The notes beneath the pieces are model-generated. The model ran no database searches. It worked only from the letters and a program-made list of their open reading frames with translations, and was not told the DNA's origin. Made by a program: the position numbers and the translations under genes. 64,000 nucleotides of DNA from Tumidithrix helvetica PCC 7403 (lineage in GTDB: Bacteria; Cyanobacteriota; Cyanobacteriia; Pseudanabaenales; Pseudanabaenaceae): positions 64,001 to 128,000 of the forward strand of contig NZ_CBDDRA010000001.1 of assembly GCF_965232925.1 (NCBI RefSeq), given 5' to 3'. Position 1 is the stretch's first letter. Each line of letters starts with the position of its first letter. Positions 18,604-60,280 of the stretch are shown here, in pieces.

Positions 18604-18846
18604 ATGGATACCGTCAAAATCGAAATTTTGGGTACGGGCTGTAAAAAGTGCCAACAGTTAGAGAAAAATGCTAAACAAGCAGTGGCGAATCTGAATCTCG
18701 CTGCCGAGGTTCTGCATATTACCGATCCTGTGGAAATTGCCATGCGTGGCGTAATGTCTACCCCCGCAATGACCATCAATGGCAAGGTTGTCAGCAAAGG
18801 GCAAGTAATTAGTGCAGAGCAAATTCAACCGCTATTGCAACGTTAA
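18604..18846 (+). CDS. Thioredoxin-family small redox protein (redox-active disulfide protein 2-like)
   Basis: 80 aa; CKKC redox pair; AAGGAG SD. Commonly paired with DUF318 permeases. Confidence 0.75.
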   Translation: MDTVKIEILGTGCKKCQQLEKNAKQAVANLNLAAEVLHITDPVEIAMRGVMSTPAMTINGKVVSKGQVISAEQIQPLLQR

Positions 18847-18858
18847 AGGGATAAAACC

Positions 18859-19857
18859 ATGTTCGATCCGTTTTATCCCTTTGATTGGTTAGCAACTCAG
18901 ATTGTCACAAAGCTTTTGGGGCTAGAAATCGCCTCACATTTAGGCTCAAGCCTACATTTCTTCCTTTACGATGTGCCAAAAGTTTTAACTTTGCTGATTG
19001 TGATTAGCTTTATTGTTGGAACATTTCAGAGTTTTTTAGAACCAGAGCGAGTACGTTCTTTGTTAGAAGGAAAGCGCACTTTTGCTGGGAATGTTTTGGC
19101 AGCGCTCGTGGGAATTGTCACTCCATTCTGTTCTTGTTCGGCAGTTCCTTTATTTATTGGATTTTTAGAAGCAGGTGTTCCTTTAGGCGTAACTTTTTCC
19201 TATCTGATGGCAGCACCAATGGTGAATGAAGTCGCTGTAATCCTATTGTGGGGATTATTTGGACTTAAAGTAACGCTGATTTATATCGGTTTTGGTGTTG
19301 GCTTAGCGATCGCTTCTGGATATATCATCGGACTTCTTAAACTAGAAAAATGGGTCGAACCATTTGTTTGGGAACTGCAAAGATCTCGTCAAGGTATGGT
19401 TCCCGATGATGAAGACAATCTGGAACCCGTTGCGCTGACTTGGAATCAAAGATTTGAGCAAGGCAGATTTCAATCTAGCGAAATTGTGCGATCGGTGTGG
19501 CTTTATGTGGTTGGAGGGATTGCGATCGGCGCAGGGATTCATGGTTATGTGCCGACCGACTTTATTGTCAAATATGCGGGTGTTCATAACCCTTTAGCAG
19601 TGCCACTTGCCGTAGTTTTGGGCGTGCCACTCTATGCGAACATCGCGGGCGTGATGCCAATTACCGAAGCTTTAGTCAATAAAGGAATGCCTATGGGTAC
19701 AGTTTTAGCTTTTACAATGGCAGTAACAGCACTATCTCTTCCTGAAATCGTGATCCTTAAAAAGGTACTGCGTCCTCAACTGTTAGCCGTATTTGTTGGT
19801 CTAATGACAGTTGGTATTATCAGCATTGGCTACATATTTAATGCTCTACTTCTGTAA
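18859..19857 (+). CDS. DUF318 (ArsP-like) permease
   Basis: 332 aa; the conserved CSCSAVPL motif and two 4-TM repeats. Confidence 0.75.
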   Translation: MFDPFYPFDWLATQIVTKLLGLEIASHLGSSLHFFLYDVPKVLTLLIVISFIVGTFQSFLEPERVRSLLEGKRTFAGNVLAALVGIVTPFCSCSAVPLFIGFLEAGVPLGVTFSYLMAAPMVNEVAVILLWGLFGLKVTLIYIGFGVGLAIASGYIIGLLKLEKWVEPFVWELQRSRQGMVPDDEDNLEPVALTWNQRFEQGRFQSSEIVRSVWLYVVGGIAIGAGIHGYVPTDFIVKYAGVHNPLAVPLAVVLGVPLYANIAGVMPITEALVNKGMPMGTVLAFTMAVTALSLPEIVILKKVLRPQLLAVFVGLMTVGIISIGYIFNALLL

Positions 19858-20026: not shown

Positions 20027-21598
20027 CTACTTTGACTTGTCAATTTTTGATAATTGCATGACGCGATTTACTGCTTCTTGAATAAAAGATTTGATGAACT
20101 CATCGCGGCGGTTGAGTTGAAACTGACGTTGTACGACCTCGGCAATACCACCATCGCCCCAATCTTGATTGCGGCTGAAATATTCAATAAAACTTTTCCC
20201 TGCAATGCGCGTGAGATAGGCAGCCGTTACACCTTGCACGGTGGCTTTGAGTAGCAATCCCACAATTGTTAAAGAAATTGCAGTCGAGACAATCTGCACG
20301 ACGCCTTTAACAATCCCCAGACTAACTAAAGTGCGTGTTAGCGAAGAGGCTAATTCCTTGCCGCGTTCTAAATTAATATCAGCGCCATAGACCTTGCCCA
20401 GTTCCACCACCATTTGCGCGTTAATCGCGGCGGTTGCCAGCAAGTCCACCACAGGCAAAGGCGTAGCAAACACTACCCCAGCTACCAACCATTGAAATTT
20501 CTCAACAACTTTTTCCGCTTCTGCTTGCCGTTGGGTATTGATAATCCGACGTGCCTCTGCTCCTAAACGTTGAGATTGCAAAAGTACGTTATCTGCAATC
20601 AACTCGTCGGCTTCGTAATTAAGAATATCCACCAACTGGGTCAAAAGCGGTTTAAGTTTCGGTGATGGCGTAACGATTTCTCCCGAATCTAAAGTAAGCG
20701 TGGCTGGACGTGCGGCGATCGCCACCACATCTCCAGGAGCAATAAACGAAACCACGCGCTGGCGTAGCTGGGCAAGAATGGACTCGCGATCGCTTTTGGT
20801 AAAGCGGTCAACTTTGTTAAACACCAATAGGGTGCGCTTACCGATCGCGGTGAGAGCTTTGAGCGCTTCATATTCTGATTGGCGCAGGTCGTCATCCACG
20901 ACAAACAATAATAAATCTGCCTCTGTTGCCAATAGTCTTGCTTCTTGCTCGCGATCGCTACCGATCGCACCTGCCTCCAAGATCCCAGGGCAGTCAGTAA
21001 TAATCACGGGGAATTCTAGATTTTTAAACCTGACGGGGGCATAGGTTTCGCCAATCGTCGTGGTTCCCATCACCGCACCGACCTCACCTTTGGGAATCGC
21101 CTCAGCAGAATTTTTATCTACAGCTTTATCTACAGCCTGTGCCTCAGCCAGTAGCGCGTTCACCAGTGAAGTTTTGCCTGCGGAGCCAACGCCAAACACA
21201 ACCACTTTTAACTCTAACCGCGTAAAACTATCACGCAAATCTTCGGAGCGTTCGAGCAGAGATCGCTTGGTAATCTCATCTTGAATTTGCTCTAACTGCT
21301 GCTGAAGCGCTGCAATACTTTCTTCGGCAGCTTCAACTTTATCGGTAGAAACCTCTGGCTCGGGACGTTTTTTCTCTGGTTCAGTCCCAAAGATACGCAA
21401 ATACCGCCAAATGGCTATAAATAGCCCAAAAAGCAGGGCAATCAAGAGCAATACGCACAACCCTGCCAAAATTGGCGAAGCCGTAGCAATGAGATTGTAA
21501 ATTTGTAAGATGCGATCGAGCAAAGCCACGGCAAAGGAAACAATTAGCCCAATACCGATAAATAACAATAGCGATCGCAACCAAGGAAATCTTGCCAT
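20027..21598 (-). CDS. Membrane-anchored GTP-binding protein (GTPase domain plus C-terminal DUF697-like membrane domain)
   Basis: N-terminal TM helices; G1 GVGSAGKTS, G3 DCPG, G4 NKVD; hydrophobic C-terminal region. Confidence 0.75.
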   Translation of the reverse strand: MARFPWLRSLLLFIGIGLIVSFAVALLDRILQIYNLIATASPILAGLCVLLLIALLFGLFIAIWRYLRIFGTEPEKKRPEPEVSTDKVEAAEESIAALQQQLEQIQDEITKRSLLERSEDLRDSFTRLELKVVVFGVGSAGKTSLVNALLAEAQAVDKAVDKNSAEAIPKGEVGAVMGTTTIGETYAPVRFKNLEFPVIITDCPGILEAGAIGSDREQEARLLATEADLLLFVVDDDLRQSEYEALKALTAIGKRTLLVFNKVDRFTKSDRESILAQLRQRVVSFIAPGDVVAIAARPATLTLDSGEIVTPSPKLKPLLTQLVDILNYEADELIADNVLLQSQRLGAEARRIINTQRQAEAEKVVEKFQWLVAGVVFATPLPVVDLLATAAINAQMVVELGKVYGADINLERGKELASSLTRTLVSLGIVKGVVQIVSTAISLTIVGLLLKATVQGVTAAYLTRIAGKSFIEYFSRNQDWGDGGIAEVVQRQFQLNRRDEFIKSFIQEAVNRVMQLSKIDKSK

Positions 21599-21727: not shown

Positions 21728-21763
21728 TGAGCGTAGGGGCAATTCATGAATTGCCCCTACGCT
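21728..21763. repeat. Perfect 36-bp palindrome GAGCGTAGGGGCAATTCATGAATTGCCCCTACGCTC (short interspersed palindromic repeat family)
   Basis: Seen in the sequence. A near-identical copy lies at 60064-60091 and a related CCCCTAC/GTAGGGG hairpin at 9497-9568. Confidence 0.8.
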
Positions 21764-21786: not shown

Positions 21787-22581
21787 TCAAAGCCAAAGAT
21801 GCATTAAGTCACGTTGTCCCCATAGTAGCCAAAAACCACTGACTACCATTGAGGTTAAAACTAACTGGCGAAACTGTTGGGCATTCATATAATTCTCTAG
21901 AATATATTTACCCAAAAAATTAGCTGGAATTGCTACCAGCCCAATTACCAAACCCGCTCCAATATTATCCGCTGACAATACCCCAAAGATTCCATAGGTA
22001 ATAATTTTAACCAAGTGGATAATGACCATGTGAATAGCTTTAGTGGCAATCAACTGCTCTTTGACCAGGCCATAGCCTAGGTAAAATGGGTTTAAGACGG
22101 GACCAGTTGTACCAACGAGTCCAGAGACAAAAGCTTTTAGGAATCCAGCGGGTAAGATATACCAAGCTTTTAGTTTTGTTTGTGGGGCGGGAATCTCGTT
22201 TTTAGCTTTTAGGTCTAGTTCGGGTTTCTTGTCCGATTTCTTTTCGATCGCAAAGCCAAAAACACTGATTATCAGAAAAACACCAATCAGGAGTTGCAGC
22301 CAATCGAGATGAATTTGGGTAAAGGTATAAGCCCCAAGGATTGCACCTGCGATCGCTCCAGGTGCGTACCAAAATGTCAATTTCCAATCAATATGTCGCC
22401 AAAATAGTGAAATGCGATGGGCATTCCCTAAAAACATGCCAATCGTAATCACAGGGGGTACGGCGGCAGCTCCCAACATGACATTCACCAAAGGGATGAG
22501 TATAAACGGGCTACCACCGCCAGCGAGGGTACTAACCACCCATGCAAAGAAACTGATTATGGCTAGAGAAATTATTGACAT
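21787..22581 (-). CDS. Sulfite exporter TauE/SafE family membrane protein (DUF81)
   Basis: 264 aa; two 4-TM halves; the GGGSPFILIPL-type motif. Confidence 0.8.
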   Translation of the reverse strand: MSIISLAIISFFAWVVSTLAGGGSPFILIPLVNVMLGAAAVPPVITIGMFLGNAHRISLFWRHIDWKLTFWYAPGAIAGAILGAYTFTQIHLDWLQLLIGVFLIISVFGFAIEKKSDKKPELDLKAKNEIPAPQTKLKAWYILPAGFLKAFVSGLVGTTGPVLNPFYLGYGLVKEQLIATKAIHMVIIHLVKIITYGIFGVLSADNIGAGLVIGLVAIPANFLGKYILENYMNAQQFRQLVLTSMVVSGFWLLWGQRDLMHLWL

Positions 22582-52978: not shown

Positions 52979-53293
52979 ATGGCGCTCATGGAAGTTATGG
53001 AAATTGCGATCGATTTGGACGAACTACAGGCAATGGCAGATCGTTTCAAGATCTTGGCAGATCCGACAAGGTTGCAAATTTTAAGAGAAATCTGCAATCA
53101 AGAGCGCAGCGTTCAAGAGATTTGCGATCGCACGGGGCTAAACCAAGGCAATGTTTCCAGACATCTCCGCTTGATGAAAGATGCAGGGGTAGTCGCATGT
53201 CGTCGAGATAGCGTTTGGCGCTATTACCGAGTCATCGATGCCGATCTGATCTCTTTATGCCTCCATATCCGCAAATCCCTGAAAAATCGGTAG
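52979..53293 (+). CDS. ArsR/SmtB-family transcriptional regulator
   Basis: HTH LADPTRLQILREICNQERSVQEICDRTGLNQGNVSRHLRLMKDAGVV. Start is the ATG at 52979 or at 52988; the track's start is a TTG. Confidence 0.8.
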   Translation: MALMEVMEIAIDLDELQAMADRFKILADPTRLQILREICNQERSVQEICDRTGLNQGNVSRHLRLMKDAGVVACRRDSVWRYYRVIDADLISLCLHIRKSLKNR

Positions 53294-53375
53294 GCAGAAA
53301 CCCAATCATCTGGCGATCGCTAGTCCCGATCGCCACAATTACAAGCAATTCTTCTCCCCCCCTTCACAGGCTACG

Positions 53376-53428
53376 GTGTACACACAAGTCGTCAAATGAA
53401 ACGAAGACAAATTTACTTGTGTGTACGA
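53376..53428. promoter_or_regulatory. Dyad-symmetric element (13-bp arms) between the arsR-like gene and the SCP2/rhodanese genes
   Basis: GTGTACACACAAGT ... ACTTGTGTGTACGA, with a 25-nt AT-rich spacer. Confidence 0.35.
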
Positions 53429-53520
53429 GGCAGCTTTGCAAAGGGCTGGTGGAATGCAAGCTTTCTTACCCCGAATTTACGTTATTCAATATTCAATTAA
53501 GTTATCAGGAGATGATTTTT

Positions 53521-53940
53521 ATGTCAGACTTGTTTTCGCAGGAATGGATGCAGACCTATGGTGAGAAGTGGAACGCAGACCCTGAGTTGTCAGATGCACT
53601 TGCCAAAATTCATTTTAATTCAACCATTGGCTATGGCTTTGAGAACGAACCAGAACCTAGGGGAATTCTTGAAATCGAGAATGGGAAAGTAATCCATGCA
53701 GGAGCTTATAAGGGACAAGCCCTTAGTTGGGATTTACGGGCAGAACGCGATCGCTGGCAGGAGTGGCTGAAAAAAGGGTTGAATCTGGTTGGCTTGAGCA
53801 TGGCATATATGTCCCGCAAACTACAATTTCGCGTGGGTGACTATGCTGCCATGATCAAGGATCCGCGCATGGCAGGTCCTTTTATCAAATCGTTTACAGT
53901 GATGGCAAAGGTTAGCCCAGAGATGTCCTATGAAATCTAA
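53521..53940 (+). CDS. SCP2 (sterol-carrier-protein-like) domain protein
   Basis: MSDLFSQEWMQTYGEKWNADPEL...; the C-terminal MAKV... is typical of the SCP2 fold. AGGAG SD. The longer 53215 start in the track is rejected. Confidence 0.55.
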   Translation: MSDLFSQEWMQTYGEKWNADPELSDALAKIHFNSTIGYGFENEPEPRGILEIENGKVIHAGAYKGQALSWDLRAERDRWQEWLKKGLNLVGLSMAYMSRKLQFRVGDYAAMIKDPRMAGPFIKSFTVMAKVSPEMSYEI

Positions 53941-54298
53941 GCAAGAATCCAATCTGAAATCCAATCTGAAATCAAAATCGAAGGTGGCAAAGCTCGTGTT
54001 ACTGACACCATCTCAATTAAAGTCGCGCCAAGATCGGCTATTGGTGGTTGACGTACGCGGTTGTTTGGAATATTGGATGGGACATATTCCGCAAGCACAA
54101 TGTCTCAGCCGCGATCGCATCCTTAAAGAAATTCCAAAGGATCGAGAAATTGCGGTGACTTGTCTGTCAGGACATCGCAGTACTGCTGCTGCTCAATGGC
54201 TCGTTGCCCAAGGCTATCAGCAGGTCTATAACCTACAGGGTGGTCTTTTGGCATGGAAAAGCGCAGGCTATCCCGTGATGTATGGAACTCAATCCTAA
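53930..54298 (+). CDS. Rhodanese-domain sulfurtransferase
   Basis: Active-site loop VTCLSGHRS; overlaps the previous gene by 11 nt. Confidence 0.85.
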   Translation: MKSKQESNLKSNLKSKSKVAKLVLLTPSQLKSRQDRLLVVDVRGCLEYWMGHIPQAQCLSRDRILKEIPKDREIAVTCLSGHRSTAAAQWLVAQGYQQVYNLQGGLLAWKSAGYPVMYGTQS

Positions 54299-54336
54299 GG
54301 CGTCAATGATAGAATAGGCTCAGGAGGTCAAAACCA

Positions 54337-55677
54337 ATGGCTCAAGAAACCTCAACCGAATCGGCAACTGAATCGACTGCCGCATCAGTAACAAAATTAA
54401 CCACCGCATCGGCAACCGAATTTCCCCAAAAAGAGCATTCTTCCTTAGTATCGCTTGCGCGTAAGCATTGGGGGCTTTTGGCGATCGCTGGCTCGGTTCT
54501 CGTGGGAGGAACTTTGATTGTTCTGCAATTGACGCGCCCGTCTCATTCTCCACAGGTAACAGAAGCCCATGCGATCGCGGTCGATACCGTAATTGTTCGG
54601 ACTCAAACGATTCCTGACACCTTGGAACTCTCTGGTACGATTCACCCAGTAGAACAGGCAGTACTCTCTACGCGAGTCATGGGAAGAATTACGCAGATAT
54701 CCTTGGAGGCAGGCGATCGCTTCCATAAAGGCGATATTCTGGCGCAAATTGACGTGGTGGATATGGCTGCTCAGACCAACCAAGCACAGTTTGGCGTTGC
54801 CCAAGCAGAAGCAGATCTGTCACGCTCGCGGGCAACGCTCAGCCAACTGGAAGCGCAACGATTAGAAATGCAGGCAACGCTGCGATTGGCACAGGTAAAC
54901 CAGCGCCGCATGGCACAACTACAAAAGGAAGGTGCGATTTCACAATCGCAATTGGATGAGGTCAATACACGTGCAGAGGAAACCAGTGCGAGGTTAGCGC
55001 AGTCAGAATCAGGCATTCAGCAGGCACAGGCAGCGATCGCTCAATCTCAAGCTGCGGTGAATCGATCGGAATCGGGTGTGGCTGCGGCAGCCGCCAGCGA
55101 AAGCTATGGCACGGTGATTGCGCCTTTTGATGGTGCGGTCGTCCAAAAGCTTGCCTATGAAGGCGAAATGGCAGCGCCCGGCACAGCTTTGCTCAAGGTC
55201 GAGAATCCGAATCGATTGCAGTTAGAAATCTCTGTGCCCGAGGAGAATTTGCGATTCGTGCGCATCGGGCAATCCGTACAGGTGCGCGTTGATGCGATCG
55301 GTGCGAGTTTTACCGCAACAATTCAACAAATCGTGCCGACCTCTGACGCAACTTCTCGCAGTTTTCTGGTCAAAGTTCCCATTCCCACTGCTGTGAATAG
55401 AGGTATTATTTCTGGCATGTTTGGACGCATTGAACTGCCTCGCGGTACGCGCAAAAGCATCTTCATTCCTAGCAACGCTCTCCTCCGACGGGGACAACTG
55501 GAGGGCGTTTATGTGACGCAACCCAAGTCACCTACGGCACTTTTGCGTTGGGTGAAAACGGGTAAGGAGCGAGATGGACAGGTAGAAATCGTTTCGGGCT
55601 TGGTAGAGGGCGATCGCGTGATTATCAGTAACCTCTCGCAACTGAGCGACGGACAGGCGCTCTCTCTCCGAAATTGA
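54337..55677 (+). CDS. RND efflux periplasmic adaptor (membrane fusion protein)
   Basis: 446 aa; N-terminal TM, biotinyl/lipoyl-like halves, a long coiled-coil hairpin and a beta-barrel domain. Confidence 0.85.
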   Translation: MAQETSTESATESTAASVTKLTTASATEFPQKEHSSLVSLARKHWGLLAIAGSVLVGGTLIVLQLTRPSHSPQVTEAHAIAVDTVIVRTQTIPDTLELSGTIHPVEQAVLSTRVMGRITQISLEAGDRFHKGDILAQIDVVDMAAQTNQAQFGVAQAEADLSRSRATLSQLEAQRLEMQATLRLAQVNQRRMAQLQKEGAISQSQLDEVNTRAEETSARLAQSESGIQQAQAAIAQSQAAVNRSESGVAAAAASESYGTVIAPFDGAVVQKLAYEGEMAAPGTALLKVENPNRLQLEISVPEENLRFVRIGQSVQVRVDAIGASFTATIQQIVPTSDATSRSFLVKVPIPTAVNRGIISGMFGRIELPRGTRKSIFIPSNALLRRGQLEGVYVTQPKSPTALLRWVKTGKERDGQVEIVSGLVEGDRVIISNLSQLSDGQALSLRN

Positions 55678-55707
55678 TGGAAATGGGAAATAAGGAGGTA
55701 ATGGGAT

Positions 55708-56229
55708 ATGTACCGAAAATTCTTGTTCCTAATCGCAGCATTCTTTATTGCTCTAGCACTCATCCTGATTGTATCTGGATCGCCTACCCATCAGTTGATT
55801 GCCCAGATGATGGGTAGGCGGAATATGGGAAGCGATATGCGGATAATTCATCAACTATTTGCCGATCGCGACCTCGTTCATCGCACAGTCGAACAGATCC
55901 CTAACGGTATTCGAGCAGTTACTGAATCAGACGATCCAGAAATTGCTGCAAGGATTCAAACCCATGTTGCCAAGATGTACCGTCATTTGGATGAGAAAAG
56001 CGCCTTTCCAGGGATCGGAATGGCACCAACTTTACCCGAGCTGTTTCGTAATGTCGATCGGTATCAGCGACAAATGCAGATGACACCCAAAGGTGTAATT
56101 GTAAGCGAAACTTCTAGTGACGCCGATATGGTTCTTCTCATTCGCGAGCATGCCCGCGAGGTCGATCGCTTTATCTCAGAGGGAATGCCCATAATGATGC
56201 ATGGGATGAACGATCGCATGAGACAGTAA
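55708..56229 (+). CDS. Met/His-rich membrane-anchored small protein
   Basis: 173 aa; N-terminal TM; Met-rich patches MMGRRNMGSDM and MPIMMHGMNDRM. Sits between the MFP and RND genes. Confidence 0.55.
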   Translation: MYRKFLFLIAAFFIALALILIVSGSPTHQLIAQMMGRRNMGSDMRIIHQLFADRDLVHRTVEQIPNGIRAVTESDDPEIAARIQTHVAKMYRHLDEKSAFPGIGMAPTLPELFRNVDRYQRQMQMTPKGVIVSETSSDADMVLLIREHAREVDRFISEGMPIMMHGMNDRMRQ

Positions 56230-56265: not shown

Positions 56266-59200
56266 ATGGACAGCGATCGGCAACAGCCTCACAAAAGAAT
56301 TCGTTTAGGGTTTGCTGGCAAACTCGCCAAGCAATTTATCGACTCTAAACTCACGCCATTAATTATCTTGGTGGCACTACTGTTGGGTCTCGGTGCGACG
56401 CTGCTCCTGCCACGCGAAGAAGAACCGCAAATTACCGTGCCGATGGCGGATGTCTTCGTACAAATGCCAGGAGCTTCAGCGAAGGATATCGAACAGCGCG
56501 TAACTTCGCCGATGGAGAAACTGATTAAGGAACTACCAGGCGTAGAATACGTGTATTCCACTTCCCGTGCGGGTTCATCCTTAGCAATCGTGCGCTTCTA
56601 TGTGGGACAAAAGACCGAGGATGCGATCGTGCAGCTTTATAACAAGCTCTATGCCAATTTCGATAAGATCCCTGCGGGGGCATCGCAGCCTCTGATTAAA
56701 TCTCGGGCGATCGATGACGTTCCGATTCTGACCCTGACGCTTTGGGGCGAACAGACTACAGGGGCGGAATTGCGACAGGTTGCCGCCCAACTAGACGAAC
56801 AAATCAAACAAGTCCCCGATGTTTCGGAAACTACGATTATTGGCGGACAAAAACGCCAGTTACGCGTGGAACTCGATCCCACCCGCCTGAATGCTTTTGG
56901 CTTATCTCCCTTAGAAATTTCGCGATCGCTGGAAACCCAAAACACTGAACTCGCCAGCGGTGCGCTCAGTCAAAACAATCAATCGTTCCTCGTCCGCACG
57001 CAGAGCTTTATCCGTTCCGTAGAGGATGCGAAAAAACTGGTGGTTGCCGTTGCCAACAACCAACCTGTCTATTTACGCGATGTGGCAACGGTTACGGATA
57101 CCGCCGAGGAACCCGCCAGTTACGTGTTTTTCGGACAGGGAATCGGCAATAAAGAGCAGGGAGAATCGAAAAGCAAAGGCGAAACCGATGCAGTGACGAT
57201 CGCGATCGCCAAACGTCGCGGCTCCAATGCCATTCAAATTTCCCATCGCGTCTTACACAAGCTAGAGCAAATTAAGCGCAACTACATTCCCCAGAATCTT
57301 CACCTCACGGTTACGCGAGACTATGGTGAAACTGCCGCCGAACGTTCCAACGAGTTGCTATTCCACATGCTGATTGCCGTGGCTTCAGTCACAATTCTCA
57401 TGTGGTTTGTCTTGGGCAAAAAAGAAGCTTGGGTGGTAGCGGTTTCGATTCCCGTTACCCTTGCTCTGACGCTAGCGAGCTTTGTATTTTACGGATTTAC
57501 GCTCAATCGCGTTACCTTCTTTGCTCTGATTTTCTCGATTGGCATTTTGGTGGATGATGCGATCGTGGTCGTAGAAAATGTGGGGCGACATCTGCAACTG
57601 CCTGCCAACAAAACTCGCTTGCAATATTCGCCCAACCGTTCCCAGACACTCAAACAGATTGTTCTAGAAGCCGTTGATGAAGTCGGAAATCCCACCATTT
57701 TAGCCACCCTAGCTGTAATTGCGGCGATTTTGCCGATGGCATTTGTGGGCGGTTTGATGGGGCCTTACATGCGACCGATTCCCCTAGGGGCATCGGCAGC
57801 GATGATCTTCTCTGCGTTAGTGGCATTTATCGTCGTACCTTGGACGACCGTGCGCGTGTTTGCCAATTATCGCGGTCACACTAGTAGCCATGCAGATGGG
57901 CAGGAGCATAGCCATGAAAAGGAAGATGCCCTTAGTCGCCTCTACCGTCACTTTATGCGACCCCTGATCCACTATCCCAAGCGCGGCAATCTGTTTATTC
58001 TCAGCACTGTCGTTGCATTAGTAGTGATTATTTTGGGATTGGCAGGATTCCGTTTGGTGATTCTCAAGATGCTGCCCTATGACAATAAAAGTGAATTGCA
58101 AGTGGTGGTGAATATGCCCGAAGGAACCACCCTAGAGCAAACGGCTAGAGCGACAAGGGAAATGGGACAATATCTGGCAACGATTCCCGAAGTGATTCAC
58201 TATCAGAGCTATGTCGGTACGGCTTCGCCCTACAACTTTAACGGATTGGTGCGGCATTACTTTTTGCGATTGGGTACAAATGTCGCCGATATTCAAGTCA
58301 ATTTTTTAGGCAAAGGCGATCGCAGCCGTCAAAGTCACGATCTGGCTAAAGCAATTCGTCCGCAGTTAAAGGAAATCGGCGATCGCTACAATGCCCGCAT
58401 TCAAGTTGCTGAAATTCCACCTGGCCCACCCGTCCTGCAAACCCTCGTCACAGAAATCTATGGGCCCAATTACAACGGTCAAATCGAACTCGCTAAACAA
58501 ATTCGCCAAATCTACCAACAAACCGATGGCGTTGTCGATGTGGATTGGTATGTGGAAGCCCCGCAAACTGATTATCACCTAATTGTCGATCGCGAAAAAG
58601 CCGCGCTCAATGGTATTACCCCTGCCCAAATCTCGGAAGTTCTCCAAATCGCCCTCTCTGGGCGCGACGTCGGACTCCTGCACGATGAGAATGCCCGCGA
58701 AGATATTGGCATTCACCTGCGCTTCAATCAATCCAGTCGGGCGCAATTAGAAGATTTACAATCCCTCAAGCTCAAAGGAACCAATGGCAATCTCGTTCCC
58801 CTCAGCACCCTAGTCAAAACGGAAACGGCTATTGCTGACTACAGCATCTATCACAAAAACTTGCAGCCTGTCGTGTACGTAATGGGCGATGTTTCTGGCA
58901 GGGTAGAAAGTGCTGTCTATGCCATGCTCAACCTGCAACCCCAGATCGATAAGCTCTCGCCCCCCTCAGGAGCAAAGGTGGAAACCTACCTCACCGAACA
59001 ACCCACAGCAACAGAAACCTATGCAATCAAATGGGATGGAGAATGGCAAGTTACCTATGAAGTATTTCGCGATCTGAGCATTGCCTTTGCCGTCGTATTG
59101 GTGCTGATCTATGCCCTCGTTGTCGGCTGGTTCCAATCTTTTACCACGCCTTTGGTAATCATGGCGGCAATTCCCTTTTCCTTGGTGGGAATTATGCCTG

Positions 59201-59616
59201 CTCACTGGCTGATGGGTTCGTTTTTTACGGCAACTTCCATGATTGGCTTTATCGCTGGTGCTGGCATCGTCGTGCGCAACTCAATCATTCTCGTAGATTT
59301 CATCGAGTTACGCCTCAAGGAAGGAATGCCTCTAGAAGAAGCCGTAATCGATGCGGGAGCCGTACGCTTTCGCCCCATGCTGTTAACGGCAGCAGCGGTG
59401 ATCGTCGGTTCGGCAATTATTCTATCCGACCCCATCTTTCAGGGTTTAGCAATTTCACTCATGGCAGGTGAAGTGGCTTCTCTCTTGCTCTCACGCTCGG
59501 CTGTGCCGATTCTCTATTACAAACTACATCATCGCAAAGAGAAATTAAATCCCAGCCCTGCTGTCAGTCAGGCTGGTAGTGAAAAGGAGCGCCACATAGC
59601 CGAGATCGTAGAGTAG
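56266..59616 (+). CDS. RND efflux transporter permease (AcrB/CusA/CzcA superfamily)
   Basis: 1116 aa, 12 TM with two large periplasmic loops. Confidence 0.9.
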
Positions 59617-59741
59617 TGAATCGACCGACTAGAACAACAGATCGGACATCGCAAACAACTCGCCGAAGACCTCATGCAAACCGTCCTCCGTGAAGCCTTT
59701 GAATAGATTTTTTATACCGCCTGAAGTGTTTGAGGAGCAGG

Positions 59742-59909
59742 TCATGGCTTATCATATGTCTTCGCATCATCGCCATCTTTCCCAGCGATCGTAAGCGGAA
59801 ACTCTGGCAAAAGAGGATGAATCCATCTTTGATGACTTCCCCTAGTTCTAATGACCTGAAATTCTGCTTTTGAGAGAACAGCCCTTAACTCCCTAATTTT
59901 CTTAGGCAT
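59742..59909 (-). CDS. hicA: HicA-like (YcfA family) toxin of a type II toxin-antitoxin system; no hicB partner found
   Basis: I re-translated the minus strand from the internal ATG: MPKKIRELRAVLSKAEFQVIRTRGSHQRWIHPLLPEFPLTIAGKDGDDAKTYDKP (55 aa). The TRGSHQRW/HP...G core is HicA-like. The track extends the ORF upstream to 60062. Confidence 0.55.
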   Translation of the reverse strand: MPKKIRELRAVLSKAEFQVIRTRGSHQRWIHPLLPEFPLTIAGKDGDDAKTYDKP

Positions 59910-60063
59910 GAACTTGATTGTAAACTCAAGATTAGACTTTGTGTTGACGATGACTAAGCCTAGCAAATAAACCTTTGAAACGTTTGCCAAATAAAGAGCC
60001 GAAGGCATCATGAAAAACGTCCTCCGCGAAACCTTTGAATAGTTTTTGGCATTTATATTCAAT

Positions 60064-60091
60064 GTAGGGGCAATTCATGAATTACCCCTAC
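60064..60091. repeat. Second copy of the GTAGGGGCAATTCATGAATT(G/A)CCCCTAC palindromic repeat
   Basis: One mismatch relative to the copy at 21728-21763. Confidence 0.8.
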
Positions 60092-60280
60092 GATTCTATT
60101 TCAGGTATTCGTTTGGAATTACGGGTAAAATTCTCATTTTTTTTATGACAAAGCATTCGCATTAGTAGTTTTTTTATAAAAATTAGTTTTTATACGAATG
60201 CTTTGCCCTGATTAGATGTCGAGATCGATTTTTTCTTGTATTGTGAACTTGTGGGGAATGAAATTCTGTTTATGAATCTG

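What the first reader, a model, noticed from the sequence alone, without database searches (positions are those of the whole stretch)
59662..60047. Orphan hicA-like toxin gene bracketed by ~50-bp direct repeats that each encode a 10-aa mini-ORF
R1 (59662-59712, GCCGAAGACCTCATGCAAACCGTCCTCCGTGAAGCCTTTGAATAGATTTTT) and R2 (59998-60047, GCCGAAGGCATCATGAAAAACGTCCTCCGCGAAACCTTTGAATAGTTTTT) are about 88% identical, in the same orientation, and flank the 168-nt HicA-like CDS (59742-59909, minus). On the plus strand they read MQTVLREAFE* and MKNVLRETFE*. A third partial copy (AAACCTTTGAAACG) sits at about 59970. R2 is immediately followed by a copy of the GTAGGGGCAATTCATGAATTACCCCTAC palindrome. The arrangement looks like an insertion that duplicated the 3' end of a small gene, or a pair of repeats that mobilise or regulate the toxin. 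No HicB-like antitoxin ORF is visible on either side.
Basis: seen in the sequence. Interest (0 to 1): 0.6.

Follow-up and report, generated by a model that had tools for sequence, protein, structure and literature searches.

The report
Decayed hicAB between hsdS-end relics
The two "direct repeats" are leftover 3' ends of a type I restriction-enzyme specificity gene (hsdS), and the "orphan toxin" between them is a hicA-hicB toxin-antitoxin pair gutted by an internal deletion, so this is a fossil of a defence-gene cluster and not a working or mobile toxin unit.

Summary
R1 and R2 match at 44 of 50 bases, are the only two copies in the window, and flank a HicA-family ORF.

The interpretation needs revising. 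On the plus strand, R1 is an 88-nt relic of the last 28 codons plus stop of a type I R-M hsdS gene. It is 96% identical in protein to Pseudanabaena HsdS C-termini. R2 is a shorter, more decayed copy, followed by the spacer and palindrome that normally follow hsdS in relatives. The 10-aa "mini-ORFs" are only the last ten hsdS codons, starting at a conserved internal Met.

hicA is truncated. Homology ends at Tyr52, so most of the C-terminal helix is lost, and it is fused to the last 12 codons of hicB. A deletion of about 236 bp removed the rest of the operon.

In Pseudanabaena contigs, intact TA pairs (MNT-HepT, DUF4160-DUF2442), palindromes and hairpin elements also sit between direct copies of this hsdS end. 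[quoted passage not shown]

Verdict: an ordinary decayed defence-island relic, with one modestly interesting recurrent pattern. Interest is low to moderate.

The parts
56266..59616 (+). RND efflux permease (acrB-like) gene. It is not part of the relic, but its stop codon (TAG, then TGA) abuts the hsdS relic in the same reading frame.
   Evidence: ORF. Pfam ACR_tran. 100% identical to Tumidithrix helvetica PCC 7403 AcrB. The C-terminal tails of orthologues are not conserved. Extension of hsdS homology into this tail is not significant.
59620..59706 (+). hsdS 3'-end relic A (contains R1): the last 28 codons IDRLEQQIGHRKQLAEDLMQTVLREAFE plus the TAG stop (59704-59706) of a type I R-M specificity gene. 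Bases 59707-59711 (ATTTT) are native hsdS 3' flank.
   Evidence: 89-96% protein identity to Pseudanabaena HsdS C-termini. tblastn with L004 HsdS residues 478-505 gives E 9e-10. blastn gives 88 nt at 91%. Differences from the closest full-length hsdS are 4 synonymous and 1 non-synonymous codon.
59712..59750 (-). hicB 3' remnant: the last 12 codons (KP*PAPQTLQAV) plus the hicB stop TAA (59712-59714). It lies tail-to-tail with the hsdS relic, 5 nt from the hsdS stop.
   Evidence: 31/39 nt identical to the L026 hicB 3' end, including the stop position, with 0 of 2000 shuffles scoring as well. tblastn against L001 HicB residues 55-71.
59742..59909 (-). Truncated hicA' ORF (55 aa including 3 junction-derived residues DKP, stop TGA 59742-59744). 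hicA homology covers codons 1-52 (59754-59909). The deletion junction is at about 59748-59753.
   Evidence: PF07927 at 36.8 bits. Relatives are 68-69 aa and continue LEKLVEAALNALKDKES after Y52. DNA homology to L001 runs from 59929 to 59748. An AF2 model of a full-length relative places helix alpha2 at residues 47-68.
59910..59932 (-). hicA upstream region shared with relatives, containing TTGAGT..TACAAT where relatives have TTGAGTCTATAAT. It is probably the native promoter with a very short leader.
   Evidence: Alignments to L001, L025 and L032 extend to 59924-59932. The consensus scan gives only a background-level hit.
59933..59987 (.). Unassigned spacer. It contains the 17-nt third partial copy (59969-59985, AAACCTTTGAAACGTTT) of the R2 end.
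   Evidence: the repeat finder family D2, 15/17 to R2. Homology of this stretch to the 5' part of the hsdS end is not significant.
59988..60042 (+). hsdS 3'-end relic B (R2): a decayed copy of the last ~15-18 codons (K*RAEGIMKNVLRETFE) plus the TAG stop (60040-60042), with an in-frame TAA at 59992-59994.
   Evidence: blastn 60008-60042 at 91%. 5 non-synonymous and 0-1 synonymous differences from full-length hsdS ends.
60043..60091 (+). Native hsdS downstream flank: a 21-nt spacer plus the 28-nt palindrome GTAGGGGCAATTCATGAATTACCCCTAC (60064-60091).
   Evidence: Window 59998-60109 aligns colinearly with the hsdS-end/spacer/palindrome unit of L004 and L015. The same palindrome lies 10-22 nt after the hsdS stop in L004-L011, L015, L017, L019 and L024. 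Hairpin energy is -13.3 kcal/mol.

Best explanation
The locus is a fossil of a type I restriction-modification and toxin-antitoxin neighbourhood in Tumidithrix helvetica PCC 7403.

What is shown:
- R1 and R2 are two relics of the stop-proximal end of an hsdS specificity gene. That end encodes the C-terminal conserved helix ...KQLAEDLMQTVLREAFE*.
- R2 still carries the spacer and palindromic hairpin that normally follow hsdS in relatives.
- Between them, on the opposite strand, lies a hicAB operon with a ~236-bp internal deletion. The deletion fuses hicA codon ~52-54 to the last 12 codons of hicB.
- The deletion removed 16 of the 22 residues of HicA helix alpha2 and almost the whole antitoxin.
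- The 10-aa mini-ORFs and the antisense 38/48-aa ORFs are by-products of hsdS codons.

What is inferred:
1. hicAB was placed tail-to-tail about 5 nt after the stop of a working hsdS. The process left the displaced original hsdS end (R2 plus palindrome) as a direct repeat downstream. [quoted passage not shown]
2. R1 stayed under selection as the live gene end, while R2 decayed.
3. Later deletions removed the hsdS body, joining the acrB stop to hsdS codon 'IDRLEQQ', and gutted hicAB.
4. The surviving HicA' is most likely inactive. That would explain how loss of the antitoxin was tolerated.
For: Identity of the repeats:
- The 28-codon plus-strand reading of 59620-59703 finds only HsdS C-termini or fragments, at 89-96% identity. 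Two are named type I restriction enzyme S subunit by JGI and one restriction endonuclease subunit S by NCBI.
- The 24-nt repeat core occurs in 13 genome contigs (Pseudanabaena, Nostoc and one unclassified cyanobacterial MAG). In most of them it is the stop-proximal end of a long open frame of 267-527 aa that reads as hsdS; a few frames are cut short by the locus edge, and L023 has only a short fragment.
- L004 HsdS carries Pfam Methylase_S.
- The R2-spacer-palindrome unit is colinear with the hsdS downstream flank of L004 and L015.

hicAB decay:
- Relatives are 68-69 aa, and homology stops at Y52.
- Relatives carry an overlapping 73-75-aa hicB. It matches PF15919 at E about 1e-5, which is just below the curated cut-off.
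- The hicB tail matches at 31/39 nt including the stop, with 0 of 2000 shuffles as good.
- Helix alpha2 spans residues 47-68 in the AF2 model (pLDDT 87).

Selection pattern:
- R1 differs from the closest hsdS by 4 synonymous and 1 non-synonymous codon.
- R2 differs by 0-1 synonymous and 5 non-synonymous codons, and has an in-frame stop.

Recurrence of the architecture in relatives:
- L004-L011: hsdS, palindrome, then an 88-nt copy.
- L014 and L016: a hairpin element, then a 33-34-nt copy.
- L021: hsdS, DUF4160-DUF2442, then a 53-nt copy.
- L105 and L106: a 50- or 42-nt copy, MNT-HepT, then an 87-nt copy.

Precedent: insertion with long (>30 bp) target duplication next to R-M genes, including repeats that overlap a gene's 3' end and a cyanobacterial case (PMC2853133).
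Against: - No empty site or intact ancestral locus was found. The closest acrB orthologues are only ~86% identical and have a different downstream gene.
- No hsdS, hsdM or hicB exists elsewhere in the window, and the rest of the genome could not be searched. The prior presence of a whole hsdS upstream of R1 is therefore inferred only from the synonymous-biased divergence of 28 codons, which are small numbers.
- hicAB relatives elsewhere are never next to hsdS fragments, so this pairing is a single case.
- hicA' keeps every invariant family residue, has no internal stop, and shows dN/dS of 0.10-0.13 against relatives. Residual function is not excluded.
- The mechanism that creates the duplication is not demonstrated.
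Confidence: 0.8

Rival explanations
1. R1 and R2 are the ends of two different hsdS genes (two R-M loci, or tandem hsdS alleles). Deletions brought them close together, and no duplication accompanied the arrival of hicAB.
For: R1 and R2 differ at 6 of 45 positions, and R1 is much closer to Pseudanabaena hsdS (44/45) than to R2. In L004 the two tandem hsdS ends have unrelated spacers, which suggests juxtaposed alleles and not a fresh duplication. The region is clearly prone to deletion.
Against: All R2-specific changes are non-synonymous and it has an in-frame stop. This fits decay of a displaced copy at least as well as allelic difference. In every relative with two copies, the downstream copy is the shorter or more decayed one and lies directly after a small insert.
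Confidence: 0.25
2. The repeats are functional sites for hicA: recombination sites that mobilise the toxin gene, or operators that regulate it.
For: Direct repeats of 42-88 nt bracket TA cassettes in several relatives. In principle they could support RecA-mediated excision and re-integration.
Against: The repeats are hsdS coding sequence. None of the >100 hicAB-relative loci examined carries them. R1 has no secondary structure beyond shuffled controls (z = -0.5). R1 lies downstream of the operon, not at its promoter. The cargo here is a deletion derivative.
Confidence: 0.05
3. HicA' is still an active orphan toxin, kept in check by a HicB encoded elsewhere in the genome.
For: The ORF is intact through 52 codons, with all invariant residues including the G-S-H motif. 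Its native upstream region is retained, and dN/dS against relatives is 0.10-0.13.
Against: 16 of the 22 residues of the C-terminal helix of the alpha-beta-beta-beta-alpha fold are missing. The same deletion removed the antitoxin, an event expected to survive only if the toxin is disabled (inference). No hicB paralogue lies in the 64-kb window. Low dN/dS mostly reflects history before the deletion.
Confidence: 0.1
4. The small ORFs are real genes: the plus-strand 10-aa mini-ORFs, or the minus-strand 38-aa (59629-59745, whose ATG overlaps the hicA' stop) and 48-aa (59932-60078) ORFs, for example a novel antitoxin.
For: The ATGA overlap of the 38-aa ORF with the hicA' stop looks like translational coupling. 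Both antisense ORFs share the motif LFKGFxED..H..FG.LF.
Against: The same antisense ORF (..LFKGFAEDGLHEVFGELF..) appears inside intact hsdS genes of L014 and L016, so it is a shadow of hsdS codons. There are no Pfam or NCBIfam hits above noise. The ATGA overlap was created by the deletion junction and the hicB tail read in another frame.
Confidence: 0.03

Closest known systems
HicAB type II toxin-antitoxin system (HicA_toxin PF07927 / HicB_lk_antitox PF15919)
   Same: The ORF scores above the Pfam cut-off, keeps the conserved G-S-H motif and every invariant residue of its subfamily, and is 85-88% identical to cyanobacterial HicA proteins. In those relatives hicA overlaps a downstream hicB.
   Different: The C-terminal ~16 residues (most of helix alpha2) are lost. 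hicB is reduced to its last 12 codons by a ~236-bp internal deletion. It is a relic, not a working pair.
Type I restriction-modification specificity subunit HsdS (Methylase_S PF01420), C-terminal conserved region
   Same: R1 encodes the last 28 residues with one substitution relative to Pseudanabaena HsdS. R2 encodes the last ~15. R2 keeps the usual downstream spacer and palindrome.
   Different: There are no target-recognition domains, no hsdM or hsdR, and no start codon. These are fragments only.
Insertion with long target duplication at R-M-linked loci (Nobusato et al. 2000; Furuta et al. 2010, PMC2853133)
   Same: A short insert without mobility genes is flanked by direct repeats longer than 30 bp that correspond to a single-copy target, here overlapping the 3' end of a gene. 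The loci are defence-related, and a cyanobacterial example is on record.
   Different: The insert is a TA cassette beside an R-M gene, not the R-M system itself. No empty-site genome was available to prove target duplication. The repeats have diverged to 88% identity.
Displaced 3'-end fragments left by elements that integrate into tRNA, tmRNA or protein-gene 3' ends (own knowledge)
   Same: The target gene stays intact, and a truncated copy of its 3' end remains downstream of the insert. Successive events give arrays of fragments of different lengths, as in L105 and L106.
   Different: No integrase or att core was identified, and the inserts are only 0.06-0.9 kb.
TA and abortive-infection genes embedded in type I R-M operons (PIN-like toxins linked to HsdM/HsdS, PMC5499597; prrC in the EcoprrI locus, cited in PMC12707154)
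   Same: Small toxin modules are physically linked to hsd genes.
   Different: Those reports concern intact co-operonic genes. Here the hsd genes are gone and the TA pair is broken.

Membership tests
HicA toxin (PF07927) | Sequence matches the family profile above the curated threshold | tested here: met
   36.8 bits against a cut-off of 27, profile positions 2-47 of 58.
HicA toxin (PF07927) | Conserved catalytic-region residues (G-S-H motif) and subfamily-invariant residues | tested here: met
   G24, S25, H26 and all 23 invariant columns are retained.
HicA toxin (PF07927) | Complete alpha-beta-beta-beta-alpha domain, including the C-terminal helix | tested here: not met
   Homology ends at Y52. 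Helix alpha2 of a full-length relative spans residues 47-68 in the AF2 model (pLDDT 87), so 16 of its 22 residues are missing.
HicAB type II TA module | Adjacent, usually overlapping, hicB antitoxin gene | tested here: not met
   Only the last 12 codons plus the stop survive. Relatives have a 73-75-aa hicB.
HicAB type II TA module | Toxicity of HicA and its neutralisation by HicB | not testable with these tools
   Requires expression experiments.
HsdS, type I R-M specificity subunit (PF01420) | C-terminal conserved helical region | tested here: met
   27 of 28 residues are identical to Pseudanabaena HsdS ends for R1. R2 matches 9 of 14.
HsdS, type I R-M specificity subunit (PF01420) | Two target-recognition domains | tested here: not met
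   There is no Methylase_S-like sequence upstream of R1 or R2, and tblastn with L004 HsdS finds only the two end fragments.
HsdS, type I R-M specificity subunit (PF01420) | Linked hsdM (and hsdR) | tested here: not met
   No HsdM match in the 64-kb window.
Insertion with long target duplication (PMC2853133) | Direct repeats longer than 30 bp flanking the insert | tested here: met
   44/50 over 50 nt, extending to 60 nt at 82%.
Insertion with long target duplication (PMC2853133) | No transposase or integrase within the insert | tested here: met
   The 276-bp insert holds only hicA' and the hicB tail.
Insertion with long target duplication (PMC2853133) | The repeat corresponds to one copy at the orthologous empty site in a related genome | tested here: inconclusive
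   Single-copy hsdS ends exist in relatives (L012, L013, L015, L017, L018), but not at an orthologous locus. acrB orthologues have a different downstream gene.
Integron-type gene cassette (attC) | The cassette-associated repeat folds as an imperfect palindrome | tested here: not met
   R1 folds no better than shuffled sequence (z = -0.52).

The most novel reading that the evidence does not exclude
In Pseudanabaenales the stop-proximal ~30-90 nt of this hsdS family may act as a preferred landing pad for small defence or TA cassettes. Each arrival would rebuild the hsdS end and push the old end downstream. This would produce arrays of the form fragment-cassette-fragment-cassette, as seen in L105, L106 and L021. 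The direct repeats would then allow RecA-dependent excision as circles and re-insertion at any homologous hsdS end. The recurrent 5' boundary at the HIP1-like octamer TCGATCGC (L004, L105, L106, L107; the corresponding position in the window reads ATCGACCG) would mark a favoured joining site. The window would be a dead end of such a system.
Probability: 0.12. Interest if true: 0.6.

Novelty: new member of a known kind. Interest (0 to 1): 0.27.

Why it matters
For annotation, the ORF that NCBI labels a "type II toxin-antitoxin system HicA family toxin" in this genome is a truncated relic. It should not be counted as an orphan toxin, and the mini-ORFs should not be called.

For genome evolution, the locus is a clear dated example of decay in a defence neighbourhood. 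The live copy of a gene end shows synonymous-biased change and the displaced copy shows neutral change. A single deletion removed an antitoxin together with the toxin's last helix.

The wider pattern found on the way may interest people who study how defence islands are assembled. TA pairs, palindromes and hairpin elements repeatedly sit between direct copies of one hsdS 3' end. This rests on a handful of short metagenomic contigs.

Tried and rejected
- Pfam, NCBIfam and PDB searches with the repeat peptides and with the 38-aa and 48-aa antisense ORFs gave nothing usable. The hsdS identity came only from the large protein collection.
- I suspected that hsdS homology continues upstream of 59620 into the last ~12 codons of the acrB ORF ([12 protein letters not shown] against AEQKAIVEKVD), and that R2 extends 5' to ~59958. 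Both failed dinucleotide-shuffle tests (278-867 of 1000 shuffles as good), so I dropped them.
- An early alignment suggested a degenerate half-palindrome after R1 (59726-59746). That stretch is better explained as the hicB tail.
- I looked for hsdS fragments next to hicAB relatives in 80 metagenome loci plus 19 others and found none.
- I looked for an empty site through acrB orthologues. The best are ~86% identical, and the Pseudanabaena PCC 6802 orthologue is followed by a DsbA-like gene that is absent from the window.
- Exact-sequence look-ups of the 55-aa HicA found no record. The only contig found with the identical AcrB is identical to the window over the 14.7 kb they share.
- The plasmid collection has no match to R1. 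Rfam has nothing. The promoter and terminator scan is at background level. PDB searches for HicA gave only a weak 1WHZ hit.
- The single genome-contig scan did not return the source genome itself, so other copies in Tumidithrix could not be counted.

Full report
**1. The observation**

The region was read directly.
- R1 (59662-59711) and R2 (59998-60047) align without gaps at 44 of 50 bases. A looser 60-nt match at 82% runs from 59652 and 59988.
- A 24-nt degenerate core of the repeat occurs exactly twice in the 64-kb window, with none expected in shuffles.
- A 17-nt third partial copy at 59969-59985 matches the R2 end at 15/17.
- The palindrome sits at 60064-60091, with one other copy at 21733-21760.
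- The minus-strand ORF 59742-59909 is a HicA-family protein (PF07927, 36.8 bits against a cut-off of 27).

**2. Source organism**

The 55-aa protein and the upstream AcrB-like protein are 100% identical to proteins of Tumidithrix helvetica PCC 7403, a cyanobacterium. The only other contig found that carries this AcrB is identical to the window over the 14.7 kb they share, so no strain variation is available.

**3. What the repeats are**

Read on the plus strand, the sequence just after the acrB stop (TAG TGA) gives IDRLEQQIGHRKQLAEDLMQTVLREAFE*.
- Profile libraries and the PDB gave nothing for this peptide.
- The large protein collection returned seven hits at 89-96% identity. All are C-termini of HsdS specificity subunits or short ORFs made from them. 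Two are named type I restriction enzyme S subunit by JGI, and one restriction endonuclease subunit S [Pseudanabaena sp.] by NCBI.
- A scan of 185,579 species genomes for the 24-nt core found 13 contigs from Pseudanabaena, Nostoc and one unclassified cyanobacterial MAG, with one match each. In most the match is the stop-proximal end of a long open frame (267-527 aa) that reads as hsdS. A few frames are cut short by the locus edge, and L023 holds only a short fragment.
- The L004 gene has Pfam Methylase_S and follows an hsdM gene.
- tblastn of that HsdS against the window finds only 59620-59703 (E 9e-10) and 59998-60039. blastn gives 88 nt at 91% for R1 and 35 nt at 91% for R2.

R1 is therefore an 88-nt relic of an hsdS 3' end, and R2 is a shorter and more decayed one. 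The "mini-ORFs" are the last ten hsdS codons, starting at the conserved Met of ...DLMQTVLREAFE.

The antisense 38-aa and 48-aa ORFs (LFKGFxED...) are shadows. The same antisense ORF occurs inside intact hsdS genes of L014 and L016.

**4. The palindrome belongs to the hsdS flank**

The same 28-nt palindrome lies 10-22 nt after the hsdS stop in five independent loci or locus groups: L004-L011, L015, L017, L019 and L024. Window 59998-60109 aligns colinearly with the end-spacer-palindrome unit of L004 and L015. R2 is thus an hsdS end still attached to its native downstream flank. The short ATTTT after the R1 stop is also typical of hsdS flanks.

**5. hicA is not intact**

- Close relatives are 68-69 aa. 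The alignment stops at Tyr52, after which they continue LEKLVEAALNALKDKES while the window reads DKP*.
- In relatives, hicA overlaps a 73-75-aa gene that matches HicB_lk_antitox at E about 1e-5, just below the curated cut-off.
- DNA homology to the Pseudanabaena PCC 6802 hicA runs from 59929 (the upstream TTGAGT..TACAAT) to 59748.
- Immediately beyond, the same frame reads KP*PAPQTLQAV*. This is the C-terminus of HicB (L026 ...GKPLPAPQILQAV*, L001 ...GKPLPSPQTLQTA*). The match is 31/39 nt including the stop position, and none of 2000 shuffles scored as well.
- A single deletion of about 236 bp therefore fused hicA codon ~52-54 to the last 12 codons of hicB.
- An AlphaFold model of a full-length relative (pLDDT 87) has helix 3-15, strands 18-21, 26-31 and 34-42, and helix 47-68. 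The window protein lacks 16 of the 22 residues of the second helix.
- The hicB stop (59712-59714, minus strand) lies 5 nt from the hsdS-relic stop (59704-59706, plus strand). The two relics are tail to tail.

**6. Age and selection**

- R1 differs from the closest full-length hsdS end (L012) at 6 of 84 bases, giving four synonymous codon changes and one non-synonymous.
- R2 differs at 5-6 of 42 bases, giving five non-synonymous changes and at most one synonymous, plus an in-frame TAA.
- The numbers are small. The pattern is what is expected if R1 was the end of a working hsdS until recently and R2 was a displaced, unselected copy.
- hicA' keeps all invariant residues. Its dN/dS against relatives is 0.10-0.13, compared with 0.03-0.06 among most intact relatives (L026/L108, which are nearly identical, give 0.14). 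This is consistent with a fairly recent deletion.

**7. The architecture recurs in relatives, with other cargo**

A 161-nt hsdS-end probe against all fetched loci, followed by inspection, shows second copies in direct orientation:
- L004-L011: hsdS end, 22 nt, palindrome, 9 nt, 88-nt copy, palindrome.
- L014 and L016: hsdS, hairpin/MITE-like element, 33-34-nt copy. L023 has a similar element followed by a 31-nt fragment, with no full-length hsdS end in the stretch held.
- L021: hsdS, DUF4160-DUF2442 pair, 53-nt copy, palindrome-like sequence.
- L105 and L106: 50- or 42-nt copy, MNT-HepT pair, 87-nt copy, then (in L105) another DUF4160-DUF2442 pair.
- L107: a fragment of 76 nt or more after an unrelated gene.

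The 87-88-nt fragments of L004, L105, L106 and the window begin at the same position (ATCGATCGCC; ATCGACCGAC in the window), although the upstream sequences are unrelated. In the Pseudanabaena copies this position and the L107 boundary fall on HIP1-like TCGATCGC/GCGATCGC octamers. HIP1 has been linked to homology-dependent DNA uptake and integration (abstracts listed) and, from my own recollection of Robinson et al. 1997, to excision. This link is a lead only.

By contrast, none of the hicAB relatives examined (80 metagenome loci, L001-L003, L108-L123) has an hsdS fragment nearby. They sit in other TA-rich islands.

**8. Mechanism**

Shown:
- the identities of R1, R2, the palindrome flank, hicA' and the hicB tail;
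- the internal deletion;
- the absence of hsdS, hsdM and hicB elsewhere in the window;
- the recurrence of hsdS-end copies around small inserts in relatives.

Inferred:
- hicAB was installed just after the stop of a working hsdS by a process that left the old hsdS end plus palindrome downstream.
- The closest described process is "insertion with long target duplication" at R-M-linked loci. Its repeats are longer than 30 bp, the inserts carry no mobility genes, the repeats sometimes overlap a gene's 3' end, and there is a Microcystis example (PMC2853133).
- An equivalent outcome comes from replacement by an incoming hsdS allele that already carried the cassette, with an illegitimate right-hand join inside the old end.
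- Later the hsdS body was deleted, joining the acrB stop to hsdS codon IDRLEQQ, and hicAB was gutted.
- Removing the antitoxin and the toxin's last helix in one event is the kind of loss a cell can survive.

**9. Rivals**

- R1 and R2 may be ends of two separate hsdS genes brought together by deletion. This is not excluded (0.25).
- Repeats acting as hicA-specific mobilising or regulatory sites is unlikely (0.05). They are hsdS coding sequence, are absent from other hicAB loci, and are unstructured (z = -0.5).
- An active orphan toxin neutralised in trans is possible but disfavoured by the missing helix (0.1).
- Real small ORFs are unlikely (0.03).

**10. Surroundings**

- Upstream is an efflux operon: ArsR-type regulator, rhodanese, membrane-fusion protein, a 173-aa ORF, and acrB.
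- Downstream are a hairpin (60149-60205), a 76-aa hydrophobic ORF, cbiC, and a long PAS-domain gene that runs off the window.
- In Pseudanabaena PCC 6802 the acrB orthologue is followed by a DsbA-like gene that is absent here. No clean empty site could be defined.

**11. Verdict**

This is a decayed hicAB cassette between two hsdS 3'-end relics. It is an ordinary product of turnover in a defence island, and a new example of known kinds (a HicAB relic, an HsdS relic, and long direct duplication at an R-M-linked insertion).

The only part that might deserve follow-up is the recurrent bracketing of small cassettes by copies of one hsdS end in Pseudanabaenales.

Noticed in passing
window 21733-21760: Second copy of the palindrome, here within a perfect 17-bp-stem hairpin (GCGTAGGGGCAATTCA / TGAATTGCCCCTACGC). 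It folds at -31.6 kcal/mol (z = -7.8) and lies between two minus-strand ORFs (20027-21598 and 21787-22581). The same palindrome is scattered in Pseudanabaena and Nostoc contigs, and L006 has a weak Y1-transposase-like gene next to three copies, which hints at a REP/RAYT-like family.
   Followed up: partly
window 60149-60205: Inverted repeat with 27-nt arms (CAAAGCATTCGCATTAG.../...TATACGAATGCTTTG). It folds at -17.8 kcal/mol (z = -4.25). Its outer arm resembles the ATACGGGAATGCTTTGCCC hairpin elements that lie downstream of hsdS in L004 and L014, so the hsdS-flank synteny may extend to about 60215.
   Followed up: partly
L012 467-660 and 1300-1490: The MNT-HepT cassette that follows a full hsdS end is itself flanked by ~190-nt direct repeats of its own leader region. 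The second copy is followed by a truncated ORF. This is a relic of tandem duplication plus deletion and shows how unstable these TA neighbourhoods are.
   Followed up: partly
L025 1239-1442: The hicA of this close relative (85% identical) carries an in-frame TGA at the invariant Trp29 codon. It is another independently broken hicA in the same subfamily.
   Followed up: no
L108-L117: The 87%-identical hicAB relatives sit in tight arrays of TA pairs (a 75-aa antitoxin with a YafQ-like toxin, and ParE-like pairs), sometimes next to a DDE transposase. There are no hsdS fragments.
   Followed up: partly
window 18604-19851 and 52997-56229; L124: In Pseudanabaena PCC 6802 the acrB operon includes thioredoxin-like and ArsP permease genes and ends with a DsbA-like gene. 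In the window the thioredoxin-like and ArsP homologues lie ~37 kb away (18604-19851), a rhodanese gene is present instead, and the DsbA-like gene is absent. The acrB protein is 83-86% identical across distant cyanobacterial genera (Aetokthonos, Nostoc, Leptodesmis), which suggests horizontal spread of the operon.
   Followed up: partly
window 59614-59622: The acrB ORF, its tandem stops (TAG TGA) and the hsdS relic are all in one reading frame. Read-through of both stops would append the 28-residue HsdS helix to AcrB. This is probably coincidental.
   Followed up: no
window 59910-59932; L001 3982-4003: In this hicA subfamily the -10-like box (TATAAT, or TACAAT in the window) ends only 7-9 nt before the ATG, with no obvious Shine-Dalgarno sequence. 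This suggests leaderless or near-leaderless hicA mRNAs.
   Followed up: no
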